Shown here: one piece after another, positions 5,580 through 62,472 of the stretch | Position numbering within the stretch: position 1 is the stretch's first letter | Layout of the letters: every line of letters begins with the position of its first letter | Assembly (NCBI GenBank): GCA_000004985.1 | Contig: GG738881.1 | Direction: 5' to 3' (one strand) | Length of the DNA: 64,000 nucleotides | From: Naegleria gruberi | Taxonomy: Eukaryota | Translations under genes and position numbers: made by a program | The notes under the pieces: model-generated | Databases searched by the model: none | Seen by the model: only the letters and a program-made list of their open reading frames with translations | Told to the model about the DNA's origin: nothing

Positions 5580-5919
5580 CTCCGAAATTAGTTTTATCTT
5601 TGGTAATTCTTGTTTTTATTTTTTATTAATTTAATCATCAAAAGAACACAAGCGTATCTACAATATTCTCAAATTTCAAGTCTTATATTGATCAAGATAA
5701 TCATCACAGTTTGAGCACTATTTTTTTGCAAAGATATTTTTTACTTTAAAAAAAATTGTTCCAACGAAAGGAAAAAGTATATTCTGCAACAATTAACATT
5801 TTTTGATCAAAATACTCATAGGAAATACACTTTTGACATAGTCTAATATGTACAAACAGACACGTGTTTCAAAAAAGCTAGGAAATCTGTCACAACTCAA
5901 CTAGAAAATGAACAATTGT

Positions 5920-6610: not shown

Positions 6611-8262
<1,652 letters not shown>

Positions 8263-8491
8263 TTTGATGATTAATGATAATTTTTTTGTGGTGGAAGAAA
8301 AATGGTGAAAAATTGATCTAGTATTTTGTTTCAGCAAGTGGAAGGTAAATGTCAATGCAAAAAGGATGAGTGCTGATGGATTTTGAGTATGTATTAATGT
8401 TTGTCCTTGTTTTGTGCTTGCCCGAGTGGTTCAAGTTAAAAATTGAATTGTGTAAAAGAATATGTGAGGGAAAATAAGAAAATGAATGTAT

Positions 8492-8565
8492 GCAGCGATA
8501 GATCAGTTGGTTAGATCGTAAGCCTAACACGCTTAAGGTCGCGGGTTCAAGCCCCGCTCGCTGTA
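8492..8565 (+). tRNA. tRNA-Val-AAC: tRNA-Val (anticodon AAC).
   Basis: The acceptor stem is GCAGCGA/TCGCTGT with a G1-U72 wobble pair. The anticodon arm AAGCC-TAACACG-CTTAA matches the eukaryotic Val-AAC family. T-arm GCGGG TTCAAGC CCCGC and a T4 run downstream. Confidence 0.9.
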
Positions 8566-8636
8566 GCCTTTTGCATGATAATTTATTAATTTAAGAACGG
8601 GCTAAAAAGTTACAATTTATTTGGATTGCTTTAATG

Positions 8637-12017: not shown

Positions 12018-13136
12018 TCAGACAAGAAAACATGGCTTTGGTATTTCATTAGTCTTTTGAAAATTCTCAATTAAAATAGTTAGTCTGAAAATGGAGCCCT
12101 TATCAGAGTCAGTTGGTGGTTTGGTGAGCAAATGAATTCGAATAAATTCCAAAATTTTAACAAATTTTGACTTGTAGGTTTGGTACATTTTGTAAGCAGC
12201 AATTCCAAGAAATGAATCCAAAATTTCAATAGTGAATAAGTGATGTTGCGAGTTTAGTATGGCAGCAATCCATTCCCAACCCTTATCGATACCATATTGA
12301 TGACCTGGTGGATTGTGCTGAATGATCATGGCATAGACAGTAATGATATCGTTCATTCTGTTCATGAATTGTATTCGATTCTCCAATTTCCCATCCACTT
12401 CCTTGTATCCAATTTTTTTGAAATCAGTAATTTGACTGTTAGATCCAATTTCTGAATTAATTGGCATAGTAAACCCAGAATTGAAATGTATATATCCTAT
12501 TGCACTATCCAATATTGCTGGGAAATTGTTAGTCAATTCACAGGTGACCTGAATATAAGGCAGCACCTTTTTAAGGTCACTTGTTTGACTTGCTGCCTGA
12601 TCCACTGCTGTTTTTGCATAAAAGTACAAGTAGTTAGATAGTGTATTCGAATCTGTGTTTTTCATGATATGATCAAGTTCTGCTACAATTTCACTTTGGT
12701 TAGTTGCTGATATTCTGTTAATTGCCTTATTAATATGTTTCTTTGTAATATCCATTTTAGTTTCTCGATATAATAGTGACCATAGGTTCTTGCTAAACAT
12801 GGCTCTTAATGTTGTATTGAAATGTTTCAAATGGTCTCGGAGTCCAACACTTGGATTAATGTCATCCTCAATATCCAGAATGGTTTCAGTAGCAGTAGGA
12901 ATAGTTTGATAGTCTTTTTCCTCTTTAACGGATTTTCTCTCTTCCTTCACTTCCTCTTTTCCAATATTCTTGATAGTTTCTTCAACAGTATGTGATTTTT
13001 GATTTGAGTTTCGTTTCTTGGCTTGATGATCAACAATGTTCTCCTCAGATTTAATTTCATCCTCTGAGTCATATTCTTCTAAAAGTCCATATCGTCCAGA
13101 ACATTCCATTCCCTTCCGCAAAGAATGATCAATACT
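12018..13136 (-). CDS. Hypothetical protein. The 5' end runs into the 9.3-kb gap; at least 367 aa are visible.
   Basis: The long ORF remains open upstream of the first Met into the gap edge (…SIDHSLRKGMEC…). No recognised domain. Confidence 0.45.
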   Translation of the reverse strand, partial: SIDHSLRKGMECSGRYGLLEEYDSEDEIKSEENIVDHQAKKRNSNQKSHTVEETIKNIGKEEVKEERKSVKEEKDYQTIPTATETILDIEDDINPSVGLRDHLKHFNTTLRAMFSKNLWSLLYRETKMDITKKHINKAINRISATNQSEIVAELDHIMKNTDSNTLSNYLYFYAKTAVDQAASQTSDLKKVLPYIQVTCELTNNFPAILDSAIGYIHFNSGFTMPINSEIGSNSQITDFKKIGYKEVDGKLENRIQFMNRMNDIITVYAMIIQHNPPGHQYGIDKGWEWIAAILNSQHHLFTIEILDSFLGIAAYKMYQTYKSKFVKILEFIRIHLLTKPPTDSDKGSIFRLTILIENFQKTNEIPKPCFLV

Positions 13137-19100: not shown

Positions 19101-22100
19101 NNNNNNNNNNNNNNNNNNNNNNNNNNNNNNNNNNNNNNNNNNNNNNNNNNNNNNNNNNNNNNNNNNNNNNNNNNNNNNNNNNNNNNNNNNNNNNNNNNNN
19201 NNNNNNNNNNNNNNNNNNNNNNNNNNNNNNNNNNNNNNNNNNNNNNNNNNNNNNNNNNNNNNNNNNNNNNNNNNNNNNNNNNNNNNNNNNNNNNNNNNNN
19301 NNNNNNNNNNNNNNNNNNNNNNNNNNNNNNNNNNNNNNNNNNNNNNNNNNNNNNNNNNNNNNNNNNNNNNNNNNNNNNNNNNNNNNNNNNNNNNNNNNNN
19401 NNNNNNNNNNNNNNNNNNNNNNNNNNNNNNNNNNNNNNNNNNNNNNNNNNNNNNNNNNNNNNNNNNNNNNNNNNNNNNNNNNNNNNNNNNNNNNNNNNNN
19501 NNNNNNNNNNNNNNNNNNNNNNNNNNNNNNNNNNNNNNNNNNNNNNNNNNNNNNNNNNNNNNNNNNNNNNNNNNNNNNNNNNNNNNNNNNNNNNNNNNNN
19601 NNNNNNNNNNNNNNNNNNNNNNNNNNNNNNNNNNNNNNNNNNNNNNNNNNNNNNNNNNNNNNNNNNNNNNNNNNNNNNNNNNNNNNNNNNNNNNNNNNNN
19701 NNNNNNNNNNNNNNNNNNNNNNNNNNNNNNNNNNNNNNNNNNNNNNNNNNNNNNNNNNNNNNNNNNNNNNNNNNNNNNNNNNNNNNNNNNNNNNNNNNNN
19801 NNNNNNNNNNNNNNNNNNNNNNNNNNNNNNNNNNNNNNNNNNNNNNNNNNNNNNNNNNNNNNNNNNNNNNNNNNNNNNNNNNNNNNNNNNNNNNNNNNNN
19901 NNNNNNNNNNNNNNNNNNNNNNNNNNNNNNNNNNNNNNNNNNNNNNNNNNNNNNNNNNNNNNNNNNNNNNNNNNNNNNNNNNNNNNNNNNNNNNNNNNNN
20001 NNNNNNNNNNNNNNNNNNNNNNNNNNNNNNNNNNNNNNNNNNNNNNNNNNNNNNNNNNNNNNNNNNNNNNNNNNNNNNNNNNNNNNNNNNNNNNNNNNNN
20101 NNNNNNNNNNNNNNNNNNNNNNNNNNNNNNNNNNNNNNNNNNNNNNNNNNNNNNNNNNNNNNNNNNNNNNNNNNNNNNNNNNNNNNNNNNNNNNNNNNNN
20201 NNNNNNNNNNNNNNNNNNNNNNNNNNNNNNNNNNNNNNNNNNNNNNNNNNNNNNNNNNNNNNNNNNNNNNNNNNNNNNNNNNNNNNNNNNNNNNNNNNNN
20301 NNNNNNNNNNNNNNNNNNNNNNNNNNNNNNNNNNNNNNNNNNNNNNNNNNNNNNNNNNNNNNNNNNNNNNNNNNNNNNNNNNNNNNNNNNNNNNNNNNNN
20401 NNNNNNNNNNNNNNNNNNNNNNNNNNNNNNNNNNNNNNNNNNNNNNNNNNNNNNNNNNNNNNNNNNNNNNNNNNNNNNNNNNNNNNNNNNNNNNNNNNNN
20501 NNNNNNNNNNNNNNNNNNNNNNNNNNNNNNNNNNNNNNNNNNNNNNNNNNNNNNNNNNNNNNNNNNNNNNNNNNNNNNNNNNNNNNNNNNNNNNNNNNNN
20601 NNNNNNNNNNNNNNNNNNNNNNNNNNNNNNNNNNNNNNNNNNNNNNNNNNNNNNNNNNNNNNNNNNNNNNNNNNNNNNNNNNNNNNNNNNNNNNNNNNNN
20701 NNNNNNNNNNNNNNNNNNNNNNNNNNNNNNNNNNNNNNNNNNNNNNNNNNNNNNNNNNNNNNNNNNNNNNNNNNNNNNNNNNNNNNNNNNNNNNNNNNNN
20801 NNNNNNNNNNNNNNNNNNNNNNNNNNNNNNNNNNNNNNNNNNNNNNNNNNNNNNNNNNNNNNNNNNNNNNNNNNNNNNNNNNNNNNNNNNNNNNNNNNNN
20901 NNNNNNNNNNNNNNNNNNNNNNNNNNNNNNNNNNNNNNNNNNNNNNNNNNNNNNNNNNNNNNNNNNNNNNNNNNNNNNNNNNNNNNNNNNNNNNNNNNNN
21001 NNNNNNNNNNNNNNNNNNNNNNNNNNNNNNNNNNNNNNNNNNNNNNNNNNNNNNNNNNNNNNNNNNNNNNNNNNNNNNNNNNNNNNNNNNNNNNNNNNNN
21101 NNNNNNNNNNNNNNNNNNNNNNNNNNNNNNNNNNNNNNNNNNNNNNNNNNNNNNNNNNNNNNNNNNNNNNNNNNNNNNNNNNNNNNNNNNNNNNNNNNNN
21201 NNNNNNNNNNNNNNNNNNNNNNNNNNNNNNNNNNNNNNNNNNNNNNNNNNNNNNNNNNNNNNNNNNNNNNNNNNNNNNNNNNNNNNNNNNNNNNNNNNNN
21301 NNNNNNNNNNNNNNNNNNNNNNNNNNNNNNNNNNNNNNNNNNNNNNNNNNNNNNNNNNNNNNNNNNNNNNNNNNNNNNNNNNNNNNNNNNNNNNNNNNNN
21401 NNNNNNNNNNNNNNNNNNNNNNNNNNNNNNNNNNNNNNNNNNNNNNNNNNNNNNNNNNNNNNNNNNNNNNNNNNNNNNNNNNNNNNNNNNNNNNNNNNNN
21501 NNNNNNNNNNNNNNNNNNNNNNNNNNNNNNNNNNNNNNNNNNNNNNNNNNNNNNNNNNNNNNNNNNNNNNNNNNNNNNNNNNNNNNNNNNNNNNNNNNNN
21601 NNNNNNNNNNNNNNNNNNNNNNNNNNNNNNNNNNNNNNNNNNNNNNNNNNNNNNNNNNNNNNNNNNNNNNNNNNNNNNNNNNNNNNNNNNNNNNNNNNNN
21701 NNNNNNNNNNNNNNNNNNNNNNNNNNNNNNNNNNNNNNNNNNNNNNNNNNNNNNNNNNNNNNNNNNNNNNNNNNNNNNNNNNNNNNNNNNNNNNNNNNNN
21801 NNNNNNNNNNNNNNNNNNNNNNNNNNNNNNNNNNNNNNNNNNNNNNNNNNNNNNNNNNNNNNNNNNNNNNNNNNNNNNNNNNNNNNNNNNNNNNNNNNNN
21901 NNNNNNNNNNNNNNNNNNNNNNNNNNNNNNNNNNNNNNNNNNNNNNNNNNNNNNNNNNNNNNNNNNNNNNNNNNNNNNNNNNNNNNNNNNNNNNNNNNNN
22001 NNNNNNNNNNNNNNNNNNNNNNNNNNNNNNNNNNNNNNNNNNNNNNNNNNNNNNNNNNNNNNNNNNNNNNNNNNNNNNNNNNNNNNNNNNNNNNNNNNNN

Positions 22101-22455
22101 NNNNNNNNNNNNNNNNNNNNNNNNNNNNNNNNNNNNNNNNNNNNNNNNNNNNNNNNNNNNNNNNNNNNNNNNNNNNNNNNNNNNNNNNNNNNNNNNNNNN
22201 NNNNNNNNNNNNNNNNNNNNNNNNNNNNNNNNNNNNNNNNNNNNNNNNNNNNNNNNNNNNNNNNNNNNNNNNNNNNNNNNNNNNNNNNNNNNNNNNNNNN
22301 NNNNNNNNNNNNNNNNNNNNNNNNNNNNNNNNNNNNNNNNNNNNNNNNNNNNNNNNNNNNNNNNNNNNNNNNNNNNNNNNNNNNNNNNNNNNNNNNNNNN
22401 NNNNNNNNNNNNNNNNNNNNNNNNNNNNNNNNNNNNNNNNNNNNNNNNNNNNNNN
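13137..22455. other. Assembly gap (9319 N).
   Basis: Run of N. It is flanked on the right by a tandem-repeat coding region, which is the likely cause of the assembly break. Confidence 1.
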
Positions 22456-23520
22456 GTTTGTCAAGGTAATTTCAAAGGAGTTGACTGTTCTCAATGTAAA
22501 TCAGGATGGAAAGGAGCTAATTGTGATGAACCAATTTGTGATTCAAAATGTAGAAAATGCTATTCACCAAACCAGTGCGCGCTATGTGACGGAAACTATT
22601 CTGGTGATAGGTGTGATAGTTGTACATCTGGATGGACTGGATCTGATTGTAATACTCCTGTTTGTGATTCAAAATGCACAACATGTGATTCACCAAATCA
22701 ATGTTCAGTTTGTAAAGGAAACTTTGAAGGATCTGACTGCTCCACATGCAAATCTGGATGGTCTGAATCTGATTGTAACACACCAGTTTGTGATTTGAAA
22801 TGCAAACAATGTGATTCTCCAAATCAATGCTCATCCTGTAATGGAAACTTTGCTGGATCAGACTGTTCAAGCTGTAAGTCTGGATGGACTGGATCTCTCT
22901 GTGATATTCCAATTTGTGATTCCAAATGTACTAATTGTTCTGCCCCATCCAAATGCTCAAAATGTCAAGGAAACTTCCAAGGTTTCGAATGTGATTCTTG
23001 TACAGATGGATGGAAAGGAACTGACTGTGACCAACCAATTTGTGATTCCAAATGTTCAGTTTGTGATTCTCCAAATCAGTGTAGAGTATGTAATGGTAAT
23101 TTTGAGGGATCTGACTGTTCCATTTGTACTACTGGCTGGAAAGGAGCTAATTGTGTAGTACCTATTTGTGACAGTAAGTGCACAACTTGTGATTCTCCAA
23201 ATCAATGTTCTGTTTGTCAAGGTAACTACAAAGGTGCTCAATGTGACAATTGTCAAGATGGTTGGACTGGCACTGATTGCAATAAGCCAATTTGTGACAG
23301 TAAGTGTACTACTTGTGATTCACCTGCTAAATGCTCAAAATGTCAAGGAAACTTCCAGGGATCTGATTGCTCCTCATGCAAATCAGGATGGAAGGGAGCT
23401 AATTGTGATGAACCAATTTGTGATTCAAAATGTTCTGAGTGCTCTGCTCCAAATCAATGTTCGACCTGTAGTGATAATTATGATGGTAACGACTGCTCTG
23501 GTTGTAAATCAGGATATAGT
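22456..23520 (+). repeat. Coding tandem repeat: about 8.5 copies of a 126-bp (42-codon) unit.
   Basis: Successive units begin at 22519, 22639/22645, 22765/22771, 22891, 23017, 23143, 23269 and 23395. Each unit encodes PICDSKC-x2-C-x-SPNQC-x2-C-x-GNF-x-GSDCS-x-CKSGW-x-G-x2-C. Confidence 0.85.
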
Positions 23521-25713
23521 GGAACCAATTGCTCATTGAGTATTTGTTATGGGCTGACCAACCAAGATGCCAATGTTTGTTCTGGACACGGTTCTTGTGT
23601 ATTGCCAAGTGTTTGTAAATGTAATTCCAAATGGTTTGGAGATAATTGTGAATTAACTTCATGCTATGGTATTATGAAGAATGACACTGGTGTTTGTAGC
23701 AAACAAGGTTCTTGTATTGGCCCTGACGTTTGTTCATGTAAGACTGGTTACAAATCCAGTGCTGATTGTTCGGTTGTCTCATGTGAAAATTTGAATAGTT
23801 GTAGTTCTCATGGTTCTTGTGTTGGACCTAACTCTTGTACATGTAGTGCTGGTTGGAAATCATCTGGTGATTGTAGCTCTCCTTCATGTGAATTGGTTTC
23901 AAACTGTAATGCACGAGGATCATGTTCTGGACCTAATGTTTGTACATGTTCAGGTGGATTCTTTGGTAAAAAGTGTGAATTGGCAACATGCTTTGGAGTT
24001 GCTGGCGATTTGAATACAGGTTGTAGTGGAAATGGAGAGTGTTTTACAACCGATACTTGTTCTTGCAATGCTGGTTATTATGGAGCTAGGTGCGATTTTA
24101 AGGTTAACCTGGAAGCAACCAAGAAGGTTACAAACTTTAAGCAATTTTTCATTGAACCAACTGTTTACAATCCATCTGGGTTATCTATTGGCTATAAATG
24201 GTCTCAAGTTGGAGGACCATCAATTAATTTAGAATCAATTAGTGAGAATACAATTTCCAACCCCAAACTTGTGATTAGATCTGAAAATGGATTGACCAAG
24301 GGACAATCCTATACCTTGCTGTTAACTACCACTAGGTCTGATAATGTTATTATTACAAATAGTATAGTTTTGAATGTTAACATCGATCCAGTAATCGATT
24401 GGTTCAGCACTGTCAACCCATCAACTGGACAATCTGTAGGTATTGCTGGTGTTACTTCATTCAATGCAAGCATTGCTTCTGCAACTGATCCAGATGGTGA
24501 TTCCGATTCTTTGCAATATTCATTTGGTTATATAGTGGATGGAAAGAGATTTGTTTCAAAGGAATTTTCTTATTCAACCTCAACAATCTTCCGACTTCCT
24601 CTTCCAAGCAATAACTTGGCTGAAGTTTTCTACATTGCTAAAGATGATATGGGAGCAACAACCGAAGTTCAATCTGTAGTTGTTGTGAATAATCCATCTT
24701 CAAGTATGAATTCTTCTCAAATAGCCAAATTGGTTGACTCAATGTTGGAAAAACCATCAATTGACCAACTTTATTTCGCCACCTCATTGATCAAATCATC
24801 AAGTGATTCAGAATCTAGTATTGTCAAAAATAAGATTATTGATGCCCTCTACAATCAAACTGAGTCCAATCCTGAACTTGCTGTCGCAATTTTAAGTGAA
24901 TTGTCAAATAAGACTCTGGACAACTCGCACGGAAGCAAGGCTCTTAGAATGCTTGAAATTTTGTCAAATATTTCAGACAGTTATGAAACTATTTTACAAA
25001 CATCTTCCAAATTGATTAGTTACACCCAGTCAACTTCCGAAAATAGACAAGTTATGAATGCAATTTTGGAAAATATTTCATCATCTTTGGCTAAGAATAT
25101 GGCAACAGGTAGTATTATTAAGACTATTTCTAATAATTTGTTAAACATTATTATTAAGAACAATGTAGATCTCTTGAATATCACCTTGCCAAGTTCAATT
25201 GGTGTTAATGGATTGACTATTCCAACATCAAATCTCAAGAATGTGGTTTCAAATCACACAATTGCATTCAGTATTACTATTTTGCCATCCTCATCTTTAA
25301 GTTTCCTCTCTATTCCTGTTTCATCCTCAGTATATAAGATCAAGCTCTTCTGGGATAGTGGAGTAATGATAAATATTACTAAATTGAACACTCCATTTGA
25401 ATTTGAAATGACTGTTGTTGGTACCTCTAGTGGTGTCGAACCAGAATGTAGATATTTTGATGAAAGAACTAATACTTTGACAAAGGATGGTGTTGAAACC
25501 ATTGTTATTTCTCCGACTCGTGTTAAGTGCAGAGTTTATCAATTAGGAGATTTCACTACAACCTTAATTTCAAAGGCTACAAGCTCGCCTGCTCCAGAAA
25601 AATCAAAGGTACAACCAAAGATTTCTCAAAGAGCAAATACTGCATCCACTACTAGTCAATTTTCATTTATGATGATGTTGCTTTTTGTGATTGTTGTTGT
25701 TTTCATGTTGTAA
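22456..25713 (+). CDS. Cysteine-rich repeat surface glycoprotein with a C-terminal hydrophobic tail (GPI signal or TM). The 5' end is missing in the gap.
   Basis: The region is open in frame from the gap edge. It encodes at least nine 42-aa 8-Cys modules, then five EGF-like modules (CSGHGSCVLPSVCKCNSKWFGDNCEL…), then a Ser/Thr/Asn-rich stalk, and ends …TSQFSFMMMLLFVIVVVFML. Confidence 0.8.
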   Translation, partial: VCQGNFKGVDCSQCKSGWKGANCDEPICDSKCRKCYSPNQCALCDGNYSGDRCDSCTSGWTGSDCNTPVCDSKCTTCDSPNQCSVCKGNFEGSDCSTCKSGWSESDCNTPVCDLKCKQCDSPNQCSSCNGNFAGSDCSSCKSGWTGSLCDIPICDSKCTNCSAPSKCSKCQGNFQGFECDSCTDGWKGTDCDQPICDSKCSVCDSPNQCRVCNGNFEGSDCSICTTGWKGANCVVPICDSKCTTCDSPNQCSVCQGNYKGAQCDNCQDGWTGTDCNKPICDSKCTTCDSPAKCSKCQGNFQGSDCSSCKSGWKGANCDEPICDSKCSECSAPNQCSTCSDNYDGNDCSGCKSGYSGTNCSLSICYGLTNQDANVCSGHGSCVLPSVCKCNSKWFGDNCELTSCYGIMKNDTGVCSKQGSCIGPDVCSCKTGYKSSADCSVVSCENLNSCSSHGSCVGPNSCTCSAGWKSSGDCSSPSCELVSNCNARGSCSGPNVCTCSGGFFGKKCELATCFGVAGDLNTGCSGNGECFTTDTCSCNAGYYGARCDFKVNLEATKKVTNFKQFFIEPTVYNPSGLSIGYKWSQVGGPSINLESISENTISNPKLVIRSENGLTKGQSYTLLLTTTRSDNVIITNSIVLNVNIDPVIDWFSTVNPSTGQSVGIAGVTSFNASIASATDPDGDSDSLQYSFGYIVDGKRFVSKEFSYSTSTIFRLPLPSNNLAEVFYIAKDDMGATTEVQSVVVVNNPSSSMNSSQIAKLVDSMLEKPSIDQLYFATSLIKSSSDSESSIVKNKIIDALYNQTESNPELAVAILSELSNKTLDNSHGSKALRMLEILSNISDSYETILQTSSKLISYTQSTSENRQVMNAILENISSSLAKNMATGSIIKTISNNLLNIIIKNNVDLLNITLPSSIGVNGLTIPTSNLKNVVSNHTIAFSITILPSSSLSFLSIPVSSSVYKIKLFWDSGVMINITKLNTPFEFEMTVVGTSSGVEPECRYFDERTNTLTKDGVETIVISPTRVKCRVYQLGDFTTTLISKATSSPAPEKSKVQPKISQRANTASTTSQFSFMMMLLFVIVVVFML

Positions 25714-31710: not shown

Positions 31711-32631
31711 TTATTGCTTTTGAGCTAGTTGCTGTTTTCTAAGCTCTCTCATCTCTTTGGCTCTTTTTGCTTGTTGATATTCATCGGCTGCAGCATTGTC
31801 AGATGTTGATACACTCACAAAACTGAATATAGAAGAAATGCTCTTTCTTCTATCGATGGCGTTATCATCCAAAGAACCCATTGATGATCGAACTAAAATT
31901 CTTCGTTTCTCTTCGCGAGTCCTATCAATTCTCTTTATAAGCTCTATAAATGCTGTATCAATTCCTTTCTTTTTAAAGGTTGCTGATGTTTCAATAAATG
32001 GACAACCAAGTTTGTCGCCCAATTGTAAACCTTCTTTGGTTTCAACTTCTCTTTCTTCATCAGGAATATCACACTTATTTCCAATAATAACAACAGGTAG
32101 AATTGTTTGAGAAGTTGAAGATGAAACGCTACTTGTTGTGCTAGATGTTGTTGTTGGAGATGATGCTATAGATGATGAAATTGAACCGGTTTCTCTTCCT
32201 GGTGAGCTAGGGCTCACAATAGTTGTTGGATTATTTGAGGTATCTGTAACATTCAATGTTGGAGTGGAAACATTACTACTATTTGTGCTGGTTGTAGTTA
32301 CAGTATTGGTAGAAGAAGAAGATGAAGAAGCATTATTTTCAGTAGCCTTTCTCTTCTTCTTGTAGGCATTTTGCCAAGAGTTCTTATTCATTTCAGCCAA
32401 GATTGGAGAAGTAGGATCGTGAAGTTGCAAAATTAATTTCATATGAGTTTTCACCTTTTCAAGAGAGAATTTGTTCTTTACATCAAACATTAACAGGTAA
32501 CCATCAATGTGTGATTTCAACTCTTCCTTCTCTTCAGTTGTAAATCCTGTATCAAAGAGAGTAATCATGGACAACTCGTATTTACAGTTTTGGAACTCTA
32601 CAGAGAAAATATCTAATGTGTTTAAACACAT
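31711..32631 (-). CDS. Atypical Ras-family GTPase, main exon. It has a ~100-aa Ser/Thr-rich insertion and lacks the catalytic Gln. An upstream exon carrying a P-loop-like GGASVGKQ probably lies at about 33013-33070.
   Basis: The G3 motif reads LFDTGFTTEE (DTGF instead of DTAGQ). G4 is IIGNKCD and G5 is FIETSAT. A stop codon immediately precedes the listed Met, so a 5' exon is required. The upstream minus-strand segment encodes …HHHRGGASVGKQEFAKAATELYDG with a gtaaaa donor. The exon junction is unresolved. Confidence 0.55.
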   Translation of the reverse strand: MCLNTLDIFSVEFQNCKYELSMITLFDTGFTTEEKEELKSHIDGYLLMFDVKNKFSLEKVKTHMKLILQLHDPTSPILAEMNKNSWQNAYKKKRKATENNASSSSSSTNTVTTTSTNSSNVSTPTLNVTDTSNNPTTIVSPSSPGRETGSISSSIASSPTTTSSTTSSVSSSTSQTILPVVIIGNKCDIPDEEREVETKEGLQLGDKLGCPFIETSATFKKKGIDTAFIELIKRIDRTREEKRRILVRSSMGSLDDNAIDRRKSISSIFSFVSVSTSDNAAADEYQQAKRAKEMRELRKQQLAQKQ

Positions 32632-49785: not shown

Positions 49786-50421
49786 ATGAATACTGATAAT
49801 CAAGGAGAGTATTATAGGAGGAGAGTTTCTATTAAACAAAGGGATCAACTTGTAAAAAGAATACGTTCCGAATCTAGTTGTTGTCATTTCCATAGTAGAG
49901 CAACAACTAGAAAAAGAGCTTTTTACAATTTTCAAAACAATATTGAATATTATGTTAACTGCATGGACATACGTTATAATGAAGATATACACTCCCTGCT
50001 TGATGCTATCAAGCTGTTTCGAGAGTATGTTCTTACTGGGTTTCCAGTAGAGTTGTTCGAGCTGTCTGGCAAGTGGTTAAACACCACAAAGGTGGCAAGA
50101 TATTTCAACATCACTGGTCTTGATGGACAGAACTATGTAGAAGGGTTTCCAGAATTAAAATTGACTGATTTGAGAAATTTGCAGACCAATGTTTGTAATC
50201 TAATGTTGCAAGCTTTAAAAGATGGTGTGAAATTTTCATTTGGAACAATTTCTGCAAGTCTAGTCGATTTATTCCATGAGATCAAGGAGAGTTTTGAACT
50301 CTTCATGAATATTAATAATTCCTGCATGCAGGTCGATCAACTAGCCCCAAAGATATCAACTATTATGGCTCATGCAAAAAAAAGAAATTCAGAATCTTTC
50401 CATTTAAAAAGTAAGTTGTGA
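49786..50421 (+). CDS. Hypothetical protein, 211 aa. Downstream ORFs up to 51042 may be further exons.
   Basis: ORF with coding-like composition and no recognised domain. The downstream ORF 50668-51042 lies on the same strand. Confidence 0.35.
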   Translation: MNTDNQGEYYRRRVSIKQRDQLVKRIRSESSCCHFHSRATTRKRAFYNFQNNIEYYVNCMDIRYNEDIHSLLDAIKLFREYVLTGFPVELFELSGKWLNTTKVARYFNITGLDGQNYVEGFPELKLTDLRNLQTNVCNLMLQALKDGVKFSFGTISASLVDLFHEIKESFELFMNINNSCMQVDQLAPKISTIMAHAKKRNSESFHLKSKL

Positions 50422-51219
50422 TGGATTCCTTTTGATTTACCTGGGCTAATGTCATTTTTCAAGTATTGGACTTATTTTGTAATAACATTGATATTTTCAA
50501 TGGTTTACCAACTGAATATCTCAAGAATTTGATACCATACACCTTTGATGTTAATTATTTTTTTTTCGTAAAATTATGGTGGTATTGCATTAATTCATCT
50601 GAAGTCCAACAAGAAAGAATAGAATTTTTATTCAATATGAAAGCTCTTCATTGATGTATTATCACATTTGATAGAAAAAAAGAATGGTATCCAACTGGTT
50701 ATTGAAACTGAATGTTTTCCCAATTATTTTCAATCCCTTTTTGAAGGACAAATTACTTCAAGTTACGAAAGCAAATTTAATCTGATTTTAGGTAAAATAA
50801 TTGGAAAAGGAAAAAGGCAACACCTTATTAAAATACTCAATTATAGAAACAAAATGGGAGAGAGCTATATCCTTCACTACATTAGAAAGAAATCCACGAA
50901 TGAGTCTTTTCCAACGTTTAACCAGGTATTCACTAAAGCTTTTCAAGATATTCACAAATTGGATTTGGCTGATTTTGATGCACCAAAAGAAAAGCAAATT
51001 GTTGCTAGCTCGAATGAGGTTAATTGTGGTCGTTATCAATAAACAAAAATATATAAAGCTACTTGATGTATCTTCCTTTTAAATTGGACCATTTCCACAC
51101 TCCTATTCCATTGTAAAATCAAGTAATTTTCCATTCTTGAACAAGAAAGTTTGTGTTTGACGCGATTGACAAAAAATTTGGCGGTTTAAAGTTCGAAAAA
51201 ATTCAAACACACAAAAAAA

Positions 51220-56071: not shown

Positions 56072-57653
56072 ATGGGAAATAACAAGACAAGGGAAAATGC
56101 ACAAATATCGAAAATAACTTCCAATTCTACTTCTTCTTCTGGTGGAGTTGGACGTTTCGGTAGTCAATCGGCAGCAGCATCATCATCTGCATCGAATGGA
56201 TTTTTGCGAAATGAAAGTGCTTCATCTTCGTTTATAGTTTCGAATAGAGAATTGAATAGTGTAATAGTCGGTTCGAAAATGGATTCAGAAATTTATTTGT
56301 ACGGTTATACGAGTACTTTATATTATGATGGTATCAATCCTGGGTGTGGTGTGACAAAGATCATTGATAATATCAATTCGGATGATGTTATTCGTTCTAG
56401 GGATTTGTGTGTTCAATCAGAAAATAATGGATTGAGTGCTGTTAAATTAATTCTAAAGCATACTTTGGTTTATAAGGTCATTTCTGGAAGATTACATTCA
56501 CATATTATTACAGCTGATGGCAGAATACTGAGTTTTGGGTCGAATAATCATGGTCAATTAGGTAGGTTAACAATAGCTTTGAAATTCATTTAAATTTCGT
56601 TGAAACTGATTGGCAATGCAGGTTGTGGAGTTGTTGGAAGTTTGAAAGCATCATATGGTATAGTGAGGGCAACTGGAGAAATTACCAATCATTTCATTAT
56701 TGATGGAGCAGCAGGTGGTTATCATTCTCTATTTATCACATCTGAAAATAAGGTGTTTTCTGTTGGAGGAAACTCTAGTAGACAATTGGGTGTAATAACA
56801 ACTGATTCGACAGCAACTGCCACTGCTATTGAAATTCCAGAGCAATCATTTGATGGAAGAAAGGTTGTGGCATGTTCAGCTGGTGATTCTCACAGTTGTT
56901 TCTTAACTAGTTGTGGAAATATCTATTTTGCTGGATCTAATTCTAATGGTGCATGTGCAGGGAATTCTGGAAATAATAGACCAATATTATTGGTGAATGA
57001 AATTCTTGCAAATGAATTTCCAATTCAAATATCATGTGGCTATGACAATACAATGATTTTGTGTCAGAGTGGAAATATATATGGTGTTGGATGTAATAGT
57101 TGTGGACAATTGGCAAGTAAGTAATTGTAATGATTCAATAATTATTGAATGAGTTATTCCAGCTGATGATGGTGATCATACCAACTTTGGAGATATTCGA
57201 AAGATTTATAACGGAGTTAAAGGAATTGTGTGGATTGGATCTGGATACTTTTGCTCTGCTGTTTGTGCAGAGGATGAATGTTATTTTGCTCCCTCACAAA
57301 CTACCTATTCTAAACTGAGTAAGATTAATCCAAATGCTATTGCAGTCGGTGTTGGTGATTCTATCATTTTTGCAACTAATGAGATTAATCAAAATGGAAA
57401 ATTTGGTAAATTGTACGTCATGAGTTCAGGTAAGGCCACAGATATTACAGGAGATTTCTCAATTGATTCAGTCTCATCAAAAATTGAGTTTAGTGGTCAA
57501 AGAGATGTCTATATTGCATATGTCTCAAAATTTGATCCTGCCTTTATGATTTCTCATCATTTCCTTCATTTGGAGAAGATTTTGGATTTTGTCAAGGGAA
57601 ATTCCTCACAATATTCTGGCTCAACTGTATTTTCTGATATTCAAATTCAATAG
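56072..57653 (+). CDS. RCC1-repeat (beta-propeller) protein. Three exons: 56072-56561, 56622-57116, 57163-57653.
   Basis: RCC1 motifs GSNNHGQLG|GCGVVGS, GGNSSRQLG, AGSNSNGACAG and GCNSCGQLA are present. The introns are 60 bp (gtaggt…tgcag) and 46 bp (gtaagt…ttccag). The total is 1476 nt in frame. Confidence 0.75.
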
Positions 57654-57706: not shown

Positions 57707-59080
57707 CTATTTCTTAATTTTCTTGGATTTAATTTTTGAAATAGTTTCTGTAAAATATCCGCCAATAGCAATTTGATATGGTTCTGCAAGCTTTGAGGTT
57801 GTAAAACTGGAAAATGATTCGAAGGATATCAAATTCTGTTCAAATAAATTACTAATGACCAGTTCAAAGAAAGATGGTCCAAACTTAATAGTTCTTTCAT
57901 AAATTTGTTCGAGGGATGAATTGGACAAGTTTGCAATGAGGGAACATACTCTATTGATGACTGTTTTGTCTTTTGTTAAATCTAAAATTCTCTTACTGTG
58001 TGAAACAACTTCTTGTTTGTCTGTGTCTGTTATATTTGTTTGTCTTCCAATCATGTTGCATACGTCAATCAACATGCCAATAAATATAGATATATCCTCA
58101 TCTTGAATTAAAAACACTGTGGAATCCTTTTCAATAATACCAATTCTCAATCGTTTGAGTGTTAACTCTTGTGATGAATTTGGCCTGAGGGTGAGAGAAA
58201 ACTTGACTAGCTCCAAGAGATTAATAGAGGTAAATTGTGGATAACTCTCAGGTTGTTTCATAATTTCAATAACTTGATCAACTTGTTTTCCAATCAAATC
58301 TTGACACTTGGCGTTAATGTACTTTACACTCATAAAATTTAAGTGTTGGAAAGGTAAATTTGTAATAGGACTCTTCTTTCCATTCTTTTCTATCCAATCA
58401 TCAATCGCCTTCTTGTCATAAATATTACCGTCAGGAGCAAGCACTGCATGTTTAAATACTTGCTTTGAGAGAGGGCATACGCAATGATTTTCATGAAATA
58501 TTTGAATGGATGTGAGAGATTCCATATCTAACACTGGATCAACAGTTGAGGATTTCCTTTTTTTCAAACAATTAGAGAAATCAGTCTTTCCTAATAATCC
58601 CATCATGTTGGCCTCTTTTAAAAGAGCATCTTCATCCATCTCCTCAATTGCTCTCTTTTTTGCCAATTTTTCCTCTCTATCCATGTTAATCACCACATCA
58701 AACTCTTTACTATCAAATTCCTTTGGCTGAATACCAATCCACTCTTCCTTCTGATCATCTCTGCTGATTGTAAAACGGTCCACTACTATATTTCTAATTT
58801 CCGTATTCTTCCTCTCCAAACATTCTTCCACAATGAATTTGATTAAAAGTTTGCAATTAATTAATTTAAAATCATTCAAGAGCTGATGATAATTTTCCAT
58901 CTTTTTAATCAATTCATTCCTACAATTAAATTCGGATAATATAGCAGCCTCCCTTCCGATCAAACTAGCATCATCATGAACATTTAATTGAGTGTCCAAA
59001 TAATAACAATAACACTTTAAAAGATTAGGAAACATTTCCTCCACCATCAAGTCTACAAAATAATATTCACTATTTTCCAT
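57707..59080 (-). CDS. U-box domain protein (putative E3 ubiquitin ligase), 457 aa.
   Basis: Central U-box VCPLSKQVFKHAVLAPDGNIYDKKAIDDWIEKNGKKSPITNLPFQHLNF. Confidence 0.65.
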   Translation of the reverse strand: MENSEYYFVDLMVEEMFPNLLKCYCYYLDTQLNVHDDASLIGREAAILSEFNCRNELIKKMENYHQLLNDFKLINCKLLIKFIVEECLERKNTEIRNIVVDRFTISRDDQKEEWIGIQPKEFDSKEFDVVINMDREEKLAKKRAIEEMDEDALLKEANMMGLLGKTDFSNCLKKRKSSTVDPVLDMESLTSIQIFHENHCVCPLSKQVFKHAVLAPDGNIYDKKAIDDWIEKNGKKSPITNLPFQHLNFMSVKYINAKCQDLIGKQVDQVIEIMKQPESYPQFTSINLLELVKFSLTLRPNSSQELTLKRLRIGIIEKDSTVFLIQDEDISIFIGMLIDVCNMIGRQTNITDTDKQEVVSHSKRILDLTKDKTVINRVCSLIANLSNSSLEQIYERTIKFGPSFFELVISNLFEQNLISFESFSSFTTSKLAEPYQIAIGGYFTETISKIKSKKIKK

Positions 59081-59592
59081 CCATCATTAATATCATAATT
59101 CTCCATTTGCAAAACATACCCATCGAGTAGCAAAACAACAGGAAGTGAAGTAATTCCTTTCATTTTTTTAAAGAATAAAACAATAAAGATGTGTCCCCAA
59201 TTTTCAGAAGGTCAAGTAAAAAGTACAGTAGAGTACGGTTTTGGGACCTCAATATTCTGCTTGTTGAGAAGTGTAATTTTGAAATTCCAAACTTTTTTCA
59301 TCTCTCTCATACAAGAAACTTCCACCATTATTTGATAGTGACCATCAAGGACAAGATGATGACAATTACTAATGAAACTGAACCTCGTGCGCAACAAAAA
59401 TAAATCTCATTCCTTCCTCATGAATGGAACTTTTAATAAGTGACAGAGAGAAACTTCAAGGTTTAGGACTGATTCTCGTCATCGGATGAGTACAGTAAAT
59501 ACGCGCGCTCCAGCAATTGTTTTTATCTAGATTTCCTATAAAAGGAAGTTCCCTGTGAAACAAACTTCCACAATCAAAAAACACAAAAAAAA

Positions 59593-60705
59593 ATGGCCAT
59601 CCTTTCAAACAGAAGAATTTTATTTGTTGCTCGTCCTGAAAACACACCAAAATCTGCTCATTTCACATTGAGTGAACCAGTTGAGGAAATCAATTCTGAA
59701 ACTTGCTTAAACGAAGGTGAAATTCTTGTGAAAACCTTATTCCTCTCAGTTGATCCGTATTTGATTATACCAATGGGAAGAAAGGGAGTGCACCCTGATG
59801 TGGTTCCTAATCAAACTCCATATCCATTGAAACAATTCAAGAATGCAGCAACTATTGCAAATGTTGGAGATGTTTTTGGAGGAAGAGGTGTTGGACACGT
59901 GGTTGCATCCAAACATGATGATTACAAGGTTGGAGATTTGGTTGCTGCTGATTATAAATGGCAAGAATATGCAATCATTAATGTGAAATCAGAGTTGACT
60001 TTTGAAAAATTGGAAAATGAAATATTTAGTCAAGTTTCTCCATCAACTGCTTTGGGTGTTTTGGGTGTGAGTGGTTCTAATGCATTGTGGGGTTTCAATT
60101 TCGTCCTTCCAAAAGATGAGAAACCAATCGAAGGAAAGACAATTGTTGTAAGTGCTGCAGCTGGTTGCATTGGACTTACTGTTGCTCAATTGGCCAAAAA
60201 CAAGGGTTTCCGTGTGGTTGGTATTGCAGGAGGTGAGGAAAAGGGTGAGAAATTGCTTTCTGAATTTAAATTGGATGCCGTAGTTGATTACAAAAAGGCA
60301 AATGGTGACTTGACCTTATTTAGTCAACTGTTGAAGGAAGCAGCTCCAAATGGAGTAGATGCATTTTTTGATAATGTAGGAGGATTGGTTGCTGATGCAG
60401 TGTATGAAAATCTCAATTTGAATGCAAGAGTTTATTTTTGTGGAGCTATTTCACAATATGGAGATGGAAAATCAATTTCAACTCCTGAGAAATACACAAA
60501 CAATCCAAATGTTACAAGTATTACATGTTTTCAAGCTGATTACATTGATACTATTCCACAAGCAAGAAGAGAACTCTTTGAATTGATTCAAAAAGGTCAA
60601 TTGAAACCAGTTGAGTGGATTACAAATGGCATTGAACAAACTCCAAGAGTTTTTGAGGAGATGTATGCTGGAAGAAACTTTGGTAAAACACTTATTCAAA
60701 TTTAA
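59593..60705 (+). CDS. NADP-dependent oxidoreductase of the MDR superfamily (prostaglandin reductase / alkenal reductase-like), 370 aa.
   Basis: Motifs LFLSVDPYLI and VSAAAGCIGLTVAQLAKNKGFRVVGIAGGEEK (Rossmann). A TATA-like CCTATAAAAGG lies about 50 bp upstream of the ATG. Confidence 0.85.
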   Translation: MAILSNRRILFVARPENTPKSAHFTLSEPVEEINSETCLNEGEILVKTLFLSVDPYLIIPMGRKGVHPDVVPNQTPYPLKQFKNAATIANVGDVFGGRGVGHVVASKHDDYKVGDLVAADYKWQEYAIINVKSELTFEKLENEIFSQVSPSTALGVLGVSGSNALWGFNFVLPKDEKPIEGKTIVVSAAAGCIGLTVAQLAKNKGFRVVGIAGGEEKGEKLLSEFKLDAVVDYKKANGDLTLFSQLLKEAAPNGVDAFFDNVGGLVADAVYENLNLNARVYFCGAISQYGDGKSISTPEKYTNNPNVTSITCFQADYIDTIPQARRELFELIQKGQLKPVEWITNGIEQTPRVFEEMYAGRNFGKTLIQI

Positions 60706-61068
60706 ACTCTGAATTTCTACATCAATTATATAAATAATAAATCGAATCTATCAACTATAATACCTTCGAACAAGTAAAATTATTTGGAAGAATCTCTTTA
60801 ATAAAGCAGACGAAAAGAATAAACCAATATTTCGTAAGCTTCATTACTACTTTTGTTCAAGGAAACTTTCAAGTTGTTTGGAATATCTTCTTCAAACAAA
60901 ACATCCCCAACATCATTGTCCAATAGTCTATAGTTAGTAATATTCCTGTTGTTCTTTGAGGTTTTGTGGATACATTACAGACTTTCGAACTGAATCCCTA
61001 TGCTTCATTTTTCTTTTTCAACAAATTATTTATTATTTACATATTTACAATGAAGTATTTAAGGATGA

Positions 61069-62472
61069 TTATTGGTGAATGAGATCAGAGATGGCTCTTT
61101 GAATATCTCCTTCATACTTATTCAATAAGGTAATATTGAGAATGTGATTGGTGAAACCCATTTGATTCAATAATTTCAATTCTTTTTGATATTTGTGTGG
61201 AATGGTTGTTTTCACAACTGGTTCTTCTTCTTCTTCAGGAATTGATTCAATAATTGGATCTTGATTTTCAAGAAGTTGATTGGAAACTTGTTGAGCTTGT
61301 TGATTGACTGATTCTGTTTCTTCTTGAGCAGCAACTGTTTCTTGTTGAACTTGTTCAGAAACTGATTCAGTTGGTTGATCTTCAATTAAATTGGAGAGAA
61401 GCAATGAAGTTGTAATATTTGGAGTATTTTCGGCAACAATTTCTTGTTCCTTCAATTGTTCTTGAATTGATTCTTCTTCTTTTGGTTGAGAAACAACAGC
61501 TGCAATTGGAGAGGTTTCAATTGGTTTCTCCTCTTGTTTCTTTTCCTGAGTTTATGATGGTTGACTCTTTTGTTCTTCTTCTCTCATTTCCTTCATTCTT
61601 TGAAGTAATAATTCTCTGAATGATTGAGGTGTAGAAGTAGTTTCTTTCTTTTCTTTCTTTGGTTCCTCTTTCTTTGGTTGTTGTTGAGCTTCATTACTTG
61701 TTGGAATTCCCAAAAGATCAGCAAGATTAATTTCAATTCTTCTCACTTTTGGTTTTGTTTGAGGAGTGGAAGCAGAAACTTGTGGGAAGAATGATTGTTT
61801 TGGTTGAGTTGACTTGTCATTTGAAAATGCAGATCTAAAAGCATTTTCAATCATATTTTCCCAAGATTGTTCTGATTGTTGTTGAGGAACTTGTTTCTTT
61901 TGAGATTCAACTCTTGGTTGTTGTAATTGAGCAAATAAACATGATGGTTGTGAAATTCTATTGAAAGTAGTATGTTGAGCTGGTTTGATTGATTTCTTTT
62001 CGCAAATAATCTTAGTCAATTTGCCCTTCATTAATTTCAACAAGAAATGGAAATCTCTTAAATTGGTCAATGAAACCAAATCATCTTCATCATCAACATA
62101 ATGTAATTCATATTGTCTCATATCGATGGAATGTTCTCTCAATACTCTATCAAATAATTCGAAACTTCCCTCATGATTAGAATCAATTTCAAATCTCAAT
62201 ACATTTGAAGCACTATTCAAATTGTGATTGAACTTTCCTTCAAAAATATAAACCTTGAATGGAACATTTCTTTCAACTTGTCTTGTTTGTGGAGAAATCA
62301 TATATGAAAGTGGAATTTTTTGTACATTATTTGCGAAATGTTGAGTTGGGATATATTGATAATCATTGAATGATGAAGTTTCTCTCAAATTTGGATAAGA
62401 AACTTGTCTTGGAATAGTTTGTTGAGGTTGGAAAGCAGCTGCAGTAGAAACTGGAATGTGAAAGAAACTCAT
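61069..62472 (-). CDS. PB1 + UBA (p62/SQSTM1- or NBR1-like) protein. A single reading frame is interrupted by one in-frame TAA at 61554-61552.
   Basis: N-terminal PB1 with OPCA motif (…FKVYIFEGKF…YELHYVDDEDDLVSLTNLRDFHF…). C-terminal UBA (LKLLNQMGFTNHILNITLLNKYEGDIQRAISDLI). The two ORFs, 62472-61552 and 61455-61069, are in the same frame, and the frame stays open across the junction except for the TAA. Confidence 0.6.

What the first reader, a model, noticed from the sequence alone, without database searches (positions are those of the whole stretch)
61069..62472. p62/NBR1-like PB1-UBA gene interrupted by a single in-frame TAA
The PB1 ORF (62472-61552) and the UBA ORF (61455-61069) are in the same frame. 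The 96 nt between them are open and encode typical acidic/Gln-rich linker (TQEKKQEEKPIETSPIAAVVSQPKEEESIQEQL). The only interruption is TAA at 61554-61552. The candidate GT..AG around it is only 20 nt, far below the 37-nt minimum seen elsewhere in this window. The possibilities are a sequencing error, a recent nonsense allele or pseudogene, separate PB1-only and UBA-only products, or programmed readthrough.
Basis: seen in the sequence. Interest (0 to 1): 0.55.

Follow-up and report, generated by a model that had tools for sequence, protein, structure and literature searches.

The report
One-base premature stop in amoeba gene
One of three near-identical Naegleria gruberi genes for a PB1–UBA (p62/NBR1-like) protein has a single CAA-to-TAA premature stop in its flexible linker, which is an ordinary young nonsense allele or base-call error that the public annotation hides inside an invented 33-base intron.

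Summary
On the minus strand one reading frame runs from ATG 62472 to TAA 61071-61069, and the only interruption is TAA at 61554-61552.

The window is Naegleria gruberi NEG-M. The locus is annotated as NAEGRDRAFT_69945 (XP_002674969). That model removes the stop by calling a 33-nt GT..AG "intron" at 61565-61533.

Several results argue against that intron:
- Two paralogues (XP_002675341, XP_002675426) translate straight through the same segment and have Gln where the window has TAA.
- A homologue (orthology unproven) in another Naegleria-like organism is also uninterrupted.
- The gene uses CAA 52 times and CAG once for Gln, so the stop is one C>T change from the paralogues' codon.
- The "intron" starts GTCAAC, has no branch motif, and is shorter than any plausible intron in the window.
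- A bridging in-frame GT..AG can be found by chance at 59% of codons.

Downstream of the stop there is no decay: no further stops or frameshifts, no lineage-specific change at 63 conserved columns, and an intact UBA domain. No ATG exists that could start a UBA-only product. The stop context is TAA-A, with no notable RNA structure.

Verdict: a very young nonsense allele (about 0.5) or a consensus base error (about 0.3). A real intron and programmed readthrough are both unlikely. Interest is low, though the annotation should be corrected.

The parts
61555..62472 (-). N-terminal ORF of 306 codons (ATG 62472 up to the codon before the TAA). As assembled, this is the product: a PB1-only protein ending ...REEEQKSQPS.
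   Evidence: It is 100% identical to residues 1-302 of XP_002674969.
61996..62268 (-). PB1 domain (NVPFKVYIFEG...KIICEK). It has the beta-1 Lys (K73) and an OPCA-like acidic motif (YVDDEDDLVSL).
   Evidence: Pfam PB1 gives E=1.3e-3 for the window copy, and 23.9 bits (cutoff 23.6) for paralogue P0002. The AF2 model of P0002 has residues 65-155 at pLDDT about 90. The best Foldseek PDB hits are p62 PB1 6jm4 and NBR1 PB1 2bkf. Coordinates checked.
61552..61554 (-). The in-frame TAA (codon 307). It aligns to Gln in both N. gruberi paralogues. It lies just after a predicted helix, in a disordered Glu/Lys/Gln-rich linker.
61533..61565 (-). The 33-nt GT..AG segment (GTCAACCATCATAAACTCAGGAAAAGAAACAAG) that the public model XP_002674969 treats as an intron to skip the TAA. 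Judged here to be coding sequence, not an intron.
   Evidence: P0001 lacks exactly SQPS*TQEKKQE and has the junction codon K. The span was located. Paralogues translate the segment colinearly. The L001 homologue has no GT in the corresponding stretch. 59% of codons in the window's long ORFs can be bridged this way by chance.
61072..61551 (-). 160 codons downstream of the TAA in the same frame: acidic/Gln-rich linker, the conserved ENQDPIIESI motif, and the UBA domain. There is no ATG before the UBA domain.
61072..61197 (-). C-terminal UBA domain (HKYQKELKLLNQMGFTNHILNITLLNKYEGDIQRAISDLIHQ).
   Evidence: Pfam UBA_NBR1_C gives E=7.1e-5, below the gathering cutoff. PDB sequence hits are to Dsk2 and ubiquilin UBA domains. 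AF2 gives a three-helix bundle with pLDDT about 94. Coordinates checked.
61069..61071 (-). The ancestral (normal) stop codon, TAA, of the full-length gene.
   Evidence: All homologues end at the same ...DLIHQ position.

Best explanation
The locus is one intronless gene of Naegleria gruberi NEG-M. It is one of three recently duplicated paralogues encoding a protein with a PB1 domain, a long disordered linker and a C-terminal UBA domain. In this copy a single C>T transition has turned a linker Gln codon (CAA) into TAA at codon 307.

As assembled, translation stops there. The product is a 306-residue protein that keeps the PB1 oligomerisation domain but lacks the conserved acidic motif and the ubiquitin-binding UBA domain. 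The change is evolutionarily very young, because nothing downstream has started to decay. It is most likely a nonsense allele, possibly heterozygous, or an incipient pseudogene. Such a loss would be tolerated because N. gruberi has at least four other PB1...UBA genes.

The 33-nt 'intron' in the public model is an annotation device, not biology.

Shown here: the stop, its colinearity with Gln in the paralogues, the lack of decay, and the lack of intron signals. Inferred: that the T is truly present in the organism's DNA, and what the truncated protein does. A PB1-only species could co-polymerise with its paralogues without binding ubiquitin.
For: - Identity of the locus: 100% match outside an 11-residue gap to XP_002674969/NAEGRDRAFT_69945.
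- Paralogues XP_002675341 and XP_002675426 read EEEQKSQQSQTQEKKQEEKPI where the window reads EEEQKSQPS*TQEKKQEEKPI, so Gln sits at the stop column.
- Gln codons in this gene are CAA 52 and CAG 1, so TAA is one transition from the expected codon.
- A homologue in another Naegleria-like organism (Logan contig L001; orthology unproven) is a single uninterrupted ORF of 419 codons.
- More distant relatives in N. gruberi and N. fowleri also have PB1 and UBA in one chain.
- No decay downstream. There are 0 extra stops or frameshifts in 160 codons although 52 of them are CAA, GAA or AAA, each one step from TAA. At the 63 downstream columns where P0002, P0003 and P0004 agree, there are 0 window-specific substitutions. 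Identity to P0002 is 91% downstream against 89% upstream.
- The stop is about 39 kb from the nearest assembly gap.
- Redundancy: at least 5 PB1...UBA genes in N. gruberi.
- Naegleria is described as a heterozygous diploid, and heterozygosity is reported for N. gruberi (PMC9928731).
Against: - No reads, ESTs or RNA-seq could be examined, so a consensus base-call error cannot be separated from a true allele.
- The complete absence of downstream decay is equally what an error predicts.
- Paralogue DNA could not be retrieved. CAA in the paralogues is therefore inferred from codon usage, and no dN/dS could be computed.
- A gene model exists that splices the stop out. N. fowleri workers used a 30-bp minimum intron length based on predicted genes (PMC8296547), so 33 nt is not formally impossible.
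Confidence: 0.5

Rival explanations
1. The T at 61554 is a consensus base-call or assembly error in the draft Sanger assembly. On this reading the organism has CAA, and the gene is an intact 467-codon PB1-UBA gene.
For: Everything except this single base looks like a functional gene. The downstream frame is open, codon usage is identical on both sides, the UBA domain is fully conserved, and there are no lineage-specific changes at conserved downstream columns. The window is a draft scaffold with N gaps. No independent assembly or read set containing this locus was found.
Against: Substitution errors that happen to create a stop are rare in multi-fold Sanger consensus (general knowledge, not measured here). 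The site is not near a gap (about 39 kb away). It is not in a homopolymer or low-complexity run that would provoke miscalls. C>T is also the commonest real mutation, and a redundant paralogue is where a real nonsense allele would be tolerated.
Confidence: 0.3
2. The 33 nt at 61565-61533 are a genuine ultra-short spliceosomal intron, as in the public model. The mature mRNA then encodes the 456-aa protein XP_002674969, and retention of the intron would give the PB1-only form.
For: GT..AG borders are present and the length is a multiple of 3, so the frame is kept. The deposited gene model uses it. A minimum intron length of 30 bp was judged appropriate for Naegleria gene predictions (PMC8296547).
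Against: - The 5' site is GTCAAC, lacking the +3 A and +5 G found in every plausible short intron of the window (GTAAGT, GTATGT, GTACGT, GTAGGT).
- There is no CTAAY/TACTAAC-type branch motif, and the 3' part is purine-rich instead of T-rich.
- 33 nt is shorter than any plausible intron here, where 37 to 60 nt is seen for the short class.
- Both paralogues translate the segment colinearly, with 10 of 12 codons conserved at protein level.
- The L001 homologue has coding sequence with no GT there.
- An in-frame GT..AG of 24-60 nt bridging a given codon exists by chance for 59% of codons in the window's long ORFs.
Confidence: 0.07
3. Programmed translational readthrough of the TAA makes both a PB1-only protein and a full-length PB1-UBA protein from one mRNA.
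For: The downstream 160 codons are perfectly preserved. From general knowledge, near-cognate decoding of UAA commonly inserts Gln, which would restore the ancestral residue.
Against: - The stop is not conserved: both paralogues have a sense codon at this position and the L001 homologue is uninterrupted across the region.
- The context is TAA followed by A, with no known leaky motif.
- The downstream RNA folds no better than shuffles, z = -0.72.
- TAA is the commonest ordinary stop in the window's long ORFs, 13 of 22.
- No other gene in the window shows the pattern.
- No suppressor tRNA was found in the window.
- No literature on readthrough in Naegleria was found.
Confidence: 0.04
4. There are two separate genes or products, a PB1 protein and an independently translated UBA protein.
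For: A mechanical ORF list shows a 128-codon 'ORF' starting at TTG 61455.
Against: TTG is not a eukaryotic start codon. The first ATG after the stop is inside the UBA domain. There is no intergenic spacer or promoter-like AT-rich gap, since the 96 nt between are coding-like and homologous to the paralogues' linker. Every homologue is one polypeptide.
Confidence: 0.01

Closest known systems
Young nonsense allele or incipient pseudogene in a recently duplicated gene family, masked by an artificial short intron in an automated gene model
   Same: There is a single disabling substitution one step from the paralogues' codon. Intact redundant copies exist. The gene predictor inserted a minimal in-frame GT..AG to keep the ORF open.
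   Different: Only one lesion is present and there is no measurable relaxation of constraint. It has therefore not been shown to be a pseudogene rather than a heterozygous allele or a base error.
p62/SQSTM1 (selective-autophagy receptor)
   Same: It has an N-terminal PB1 domain with both the beta-1 lysine and an OPCA-like acidic motif (type-AB-like), and the best structural match is the p62 PB1 domain. It also has a long disordered middle and a C-terminal UBA domain.
   Different: There is no ZZ zinc finger: only two Cys in the whole protein and no Pfam ZZ hit. No demonstrated LIR or KIR. p62 proper is regarded as metazoan (own knowledge). Function was not tested.
NBR1 family (PB1-ZZ-FW-UBA; plants, fungi, protists, animals)
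   Same: The PB1 fold matches NBR1 PB1 2bkf and AtNBR1 6tgn. The C-terminal UBA scores best against Pfam UBA_NBR1_C. Weak sequence hits of the family include true PB1-ZZ-FW-UBA proteins (P0023, P0024).
   Different: The defining FW/NBR1 domain (N_BRCA1_IG) and the ZZ finger are absent. The UBA_NBR1_C score is below the gathering cutoff.
Naegleria PB1-ZZ-UBA proteins (N. gruberi NAEGRDRAFT_81162; N. fowleri FDP41_006830 and FDP41_001731)
   Same: Same genus, same PB1...UBA order, and a highly similar UBA end, LLNKYxGDIQRxIxDLI.
   Different: Those proteins retain a ZZ finger. The window gene belongs to a ZZ-less subfamily (with XP_002675341, XP_002675426, XP_002672105 and Logan P0004) that was not detected in N. 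fowleri at E<=1e-3.

Membership tests
p62/SQSTM1-like receptor | N-terminal PB1 domain able to polymerise head-to-tail (basic Lys plus acidic OPCA) | tested here: met
   Pfam PB1 hit (paralogue above cutoff). AF2 beta-grasp with pLDDT about 90. Foldseek top hits are p62 PB1. The Lys (K73 in the window protein, nearly invariant) and the Y-x-DDE motif (invariant) are conserved in alignment A2. Polymerisation itself was not tested.
p62/SQSTM1-like receptor | ZZ-type zinc finger after the PB1 domain | tested here: not met
   No ZZ hit for the window protein, P0002, P0004 or P0005, although ZZ is found in P0009-P0012 by the same scan.
p62/SQSTM1-like receptor | LIR motif ([W/F/Y]xx[L/I/V] in an acidic context) that binds ATG8 | not tested
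   Only noted by eye. The conserved ENQDPIIESI before the UBA lacks the aromatic residue, and FREL (SFRELL) is conserved in a predicted helix. There is no binding or profile evidence.
p62/SQSTM1-like receptor | C-terminal UBA domain | tested here: met
   UBA_NBR1_C E=7.1e-5. Dsk2 and ubiquilin UBA hits in the PDB. Three-helix bundle with pLDDT about 94. In this copy the UBA lies downstream of the TAA.
NBR1 family | FW / NBR1 domain (Pfam N_BRCA1_IG) | tested here: not met
   No hit in the window protein or its close relatives. The domain is detected in P0023 and P0024 by the same scan.
NBR1 family | NBR1-type C-terminal UBA at the Pfam gathering score | tested here: inconclusive
   23.1 bits against a cutoff of 27. 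P0004 scores 24.5 and P0002 scores 19.8.
Spliceosomal intron (for 61565-61533) | GT..AG borders | tested here: met
   This is expected by chance at 59% of codons.
Spliceosomal intron (for 61565-61533) | 5' splice-site consensus (GTAWGT-like, G at +5) and a CTAAY branch motif near the 3' end, as in the window's plausible introns | tested here: not met
   The site is GTCAAC, with no CTAAY and a purine-rich 3' half, in contrast to the candidates. The comparison set is inferred from ORF continuity, not from RNA.
Spliceosomal intron (for 61565-61533) | The segment is not part of the coding sequence in homologues | tested here: not met
   Paralogues translate it colinearly. The L001 homologue is coding there and has no GT.
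Spliceosomal intron (for 61565-61533) | Removal from mRNA | not testable with these tools
   No transcript data were reachable.
Programmed stop-codon readthrough | The stop codon is conserved in homologues, with a conserved extension | tested here: not met
   The extension is conserved, but the paralogues have Gln at the position and the L001 homologue is uninterrupted there.
Programmed stop-codon readthrough | Leaky context or a stimulatory downstream structure | tested here: not met
   The context is TAA-A-CUCAG. The fold z-score is -0.72.
Established pseudogene | Multiple disabling lesions or relaxed constraint | tested here: not met
   There is one lesion only, and 0 window-specific changes at 63 conserved downstream columns.

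The most novel reading that the evidence does not exclude
The TAA is genuine and is partly bypassed, either by readthrough that re-inserts Gln or by regulated removal of an unusually short, non-consensus 33-nt intron. One locus would then produce both a PB1-only 'capping' subunit and a full PB1-UBA receptor, tuning polymer length or ubiquitin binding in a p62-like scaffold of a heterolobosean amoeba.
Probability: 0.06. Interest if true: 0.6.

Novelty: new member of a known kind. Interest (0 to 1): 0.15.

Why it matters
The value is mostly practical. The RefSeq/UniProt entry XP_002674969 / D2VLY6 probably describes a protein that does not exist as written, because 11 residues were removed by an invented intron. 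Models patched in this way can hide real nonsense alleles or assembly errors, and paralogue XP_002675426 may be a second case.

Biologically, the finding documents a ZZ-less PB1-UBA subfamily in the N. gruberi lineage with several redundant copies, one of which may be in the first step of being lost. If the stop is real, the PB1-only product could interfere with polymerisation of its paralogues. That idea is speculative, and nothing here challenges current understanding.

Tried and rejected
- Paralogue DNA. I tried to fetch DNA for the paralogues and independent contigs for this locus by exact-protein look-up (306-aa ORF, P0001, P0002, P0003). None is on record, so I could make no codon-level comparison and no dN/dS.
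- Metagenome scan. A scan with the family alignment gave 246 pattern matches, none confirmed.
- Paralogue inside the window. I looked because a second 306-aa ORF exists at 31711-32631. It is an unrelated Ras-like GTPase, and there are no long repeats.
- Synteny between Logan contig L001 and the window. Only the gene itself matches, so orthology against paralogy of P0004 stays open.
- De novo intron catalogue from sequence alone. The result is noisy. I used only a handful of candidates with long open exons on both sides, and they are not RNA-validated.
- Literature. There are no papers naming these loci, none on Naegleria together with NBR1/PB1, and nothing specific on readthrough in Naegleria. 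The 2010 genome paper and the 2011 review are not held, so heterozygosity and EST details are not cited from them.
- Alternative genetic code (TAA = Gln, ciliate- or diplomonad-like). Rejected, because TAA is the commonest terminator of long ORFs here and homologues end at the same TAA-terminated ...DLIHQ.

Full report
**1. What is in the sequence**

On the minus strand an ATG at 62472 opens a frame that runs 306 codons to TAA at 61554-61552. The frame then continues without any further stop for 160 codons to TAA at 61071-61069. The downstream stretch is clearly coding:
- It has one terminal stop in 161 codons, against 6 and 10 stops in the other two frames.
- GC3 is 0.19 on both sides of the stop.
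- Gln is encoded by CAA 52 times and by CAG once across the gene.

Among all single stops in the window flanked by at least 80 open codons on both sides, the others lie in intergenic DNA or in obvious stop-rich introns. This is the only one with homology-supported coding sequence on both sides.

**2. Where the window comes from and how the locus is annotated**

A protein search with the conceptual read-through translation found four proteins. The best is XP_002674969.1 / NAEGRDRAFT_69945 of Naegleria gruberi (456 aa). It is identical to the window translation except that 11 residues around the stop are missing and one junction residue differs (EEEQK|K|EKPIE).

That difference corresponds exactly to removing the 33 nt GTCAACCATCATAAACTCAGGAAAAGAAACAAG (window 61565-61533). 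The public model therefore avoids the stop with a 33-nt GT..AG "intron".

The window has 33-35% GC and N-filled scaffold gaps at 4020-4168, 10409-11406 and 13137-22455. This is consistent with the draft NEG-M assembly. The stop lies about 39 kb from the nearest gap.

**3. Homologues show a single gene with Gln at the stop position**

Two N. gruberi paralogues sit on another scaffold: XP_002675341 (479 aa) and XP_002675426 (455 aa). They are about 90% identical to the window protein over aligned columns (269/301 and 146/160 against P0002).
- They read ...EEEQKSQQSQTQEKKQEEKPIQ... where the window reads ...EEEQKSQPS*TQEKKQEEKPIE....
- The stop column is Gln in both, and the segment called an intron is translated colinearly.
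- Given 52 CAA to 1 CAG, the ancestral codon was almost certainly CAA. The TAA is then a single C>T transition. The codon identity in the paralogues is inferred, because their DNA could not be retrieved.

A homologue with 57% aligned identity comes from another Naegleria-like organism (Logan run SRR25266747, contig L001). It is one uninterrupted 419-codon ORF, and the corresponding stretch contains no GT at all.

More distant relatives are also single polypeptides with PB1 at the front and UBA at the end. These are N. gruberi XP_002672105 and XP_002672654, and N. fowleri FDP41_006830 and FDP41_001731.

There is no Met between the TAA and the UBA domain, so an independent ATG-initiated UBA product is excluded.

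**4. The intron hypothesis**

- An in-frame GT..AG of 24-60 nt that bridges a given codon exists for 59% of 7,183 codons in the window's long ORFs. Its presence here carries no weight.
- The plausible short introns of the window were inferred from long open exons on both sides, not from RNA. Examples are 57117-57153 (37 nt), 6923-6970 (48 nt, minus strand), 59070-59119 (50 nt, minus strand), 1179-1230 (52 nt), 50411-50463 (53 nt) and 56562-56621 (60 nt).
- These begin GTAAGT, GTATGT, GTACGT or GTAGGT and contain stops. Those checked for composition are 64-87% A+T, and most have a CTAAY/TTAAY-like motif shortly before the AG.
- The 33-nt segment begins GTCAAC, has no such motif, is only 12% T and is purine-rich like the surrounding Glu/Lys codons. 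It is also shorter than all of the plausible introns.
- The average N. gruberi intron is 203 bp. A 30-bp minimum was used for N. fowleri mapping "based on an assessment of predicted genes" (PMC8296547). So 33 nt is not formally excluded, but the predicted genes themselves include patches like this one.

I rate a real intron at about 7%.

**5. How old the stop is**

Alignment A1 was polarised with P0004 as outgroup.
- Downstream of the stop, the window copy has 0 lineage-specific substitutions at the 63 columns where both paralogues and the outgroup agree. The P0002/P0003 branch has 2 and P0003 has 2.
- Upstream, the window copy has 8 changes, against 147 fully conserved columns.
- Identity to P0002 is 91% downstream and 89% upstream.
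- The UBA domain is identical to the paralogues except for one K/R difference, where the window keeps the outgroup state.

Under neutrality roughly three quarters of nucleotide changes would alter the protein. Zero changes in 63 conserved codons then bounds neutral divergence since loss of constraint at about 2% per site. This is my own rough estimate.

The downstream part also has 52 codons (CAA, GAA or AAA) that are one step from TAA, and none has mutated to a stop.

The stop is therefore very recent, or absent from the organism, or bypassed.

**6. Readthrough**

Nothing supports programmed readthrough:
- The stop is not conserved in the paralogues, and the L001 homologue is uninterrupted across the region.
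- The context is UAA-A with no known leaky motif.
- The 121 nt from the stop onward fold no better than shuffles (z = -0.72).
- TAA is the most frequent ordinary terminator in the window (13 of 22 long ORFs).
- The only tRNAs in the window are Gly-GCC and Val-AAC.
- A literature search found nothing for Naegleria.

Basal near-cognate decoding of UAA would insert Gln and so recreate the ancestral protein at trace level. This is general knowledge and was not tested here.

**7. What the protein is**

- Pfam gives a sub-threshold PB1 hit for the window copy (E=1.3e-3). It gives an above-threshold hit for paralogue P0002 (23.9 bits against a 23.6 cutoff).
- The C-terminus gives a sub-threshold UBA_NBR1_C hit (E=7.1e-5).
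- PDB sequence hits for the C-terminus are the Dsk2 and ubiquilin UBA domains.
- An AlphaFold2 model of P0002 was built from a 10-sequence alignment. It gives a confident beta-grasp at 65-155 (pLDDT about 90), a helix at 295-324, a confident three-helix bundle at 441-478 (pLDDT about 94), and disorder elsewhere.
- Foldseek against the PDB returns p62/SQSTM1 PB1 (6jm4, 4mjs, 6tgy) and NBR1 PB1 (2bkf) first.
- The beta-1 Lys is nearly invariant and the Y-x-DDE acidic core is invariant in alignment A2. This pattern is the type-AB one that lets p62 form filaments (established knowledge of PB1 domains).
- No ZZ finger and no NBR1 FW domain is present, although the same scans detect both in more distant hits.

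The protein works like a minimal p62/NBR1-type scaffold, combining oligomerisation with ubiquitin binding. It is not a member of either family by their defining domain sets. ATG8 binding is untested. The stop falls just after the predicted helix, in the disordered linker.

**8. Conclusion and weights**

The evidence converges on a one-base CAA>TAA difference in one of at least five PB1...UBA genes of N. gruberi.
- I put about 0.5 on a genuine, very young nonsense allele, either heterozygous or an incipient pseudogene. Three points favour it: the gene family is redundant, Naegleria is described as a heterozygous diploid and heterozygosity is reported in N. gruberi (PMC9928731), and the site is an unremarkable, non-gap position.
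- I put about 0.3 on a consensus base error.
- The remainder is about 0.07 for a real 33-nt intron, about 0.04 for programmed readthrough, and about 0.01 for separate genes.

Only reads or cDNA can decide between the first two. Either way the finding is ordinary. Its main use is to flag the public gene model as patched.

Noticed in passing
Not in the window: paralogue XP_002675426 (P0003), alignment A1 columns about 365-390: This gene model lacks 24 residues (…KEQEIVAENTPNITTSLLLSNLIED…) that are conserved in the window copy, in P0002 and in the outgroup. It reads QELRNYQP instead, and it also lacks the penultimate His. It may be a second family member in which a lesion was bridged by an artificial intron.
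   Followed up: no
window 61213-61242 (minus strand), protein motif ENQDPIIESI: An acidic motif just upstream of the UBA domain is invariant between N. gruberi and the 57%-identical L001 homologue. It sits where NBR1 and p62 carry their LIR, but it has Pro instead of the aromatic residue. It lies downstream of the TAA, so the truncated product would lose it.
   Followed up: no
window 60928-61010 (minus strand): Just downstream of the gene there is a strong yeast-like branch/acceptor signal, TTACTAACTATAG, followed by an acidic open frame (LLDNDVGDVLFEEDIPNNL…, 60798-60923). A short ATG exon at about 61007 could join it through a roughly 53-56-nt intron. This is probably the start of the next minus-strand gene.
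   Followed up: partly
window 22500-23531 (+), inside the ORF at 22795-25713: Six to seven tandem copies of a 126-nt (42-codon) Cys-rich EGF-like repeat, about 70% identical to each other, begin directly at the edge of the large N gap. Contig L001 carries a similar repeat protein (tblastx hits).
   Followed up: partly
window 4020-4168, 10409-11406 and 13137-22455: Runs of N (assembly gaps) total 10,466 bases. The ORFs that the ORF listing reports across them (for example 13125-22469) are artefacts.
   Followed up: yes
window 5509-5580 (+) and 8491-8568 (+): tRNA-Gly(GCC) and tRNA-Val(AAC) genes.
   Followed up: no
window 31711-32631 (minus strand): A 306-aa ORF, by coincidence the same length as the PB1 ORF. 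It looks like a Ras-family small GTPase carrying a long Ser/Thr-rich low-complexity insertion.
   Followed up: partly
window 59593-60705 (+): An intact, intronless 370-aa medium-chain oxidoreductase (ADH_N_2 plus ADH_zinc_N), convergent with the PB1-UBA gene.
   Followed up: partly
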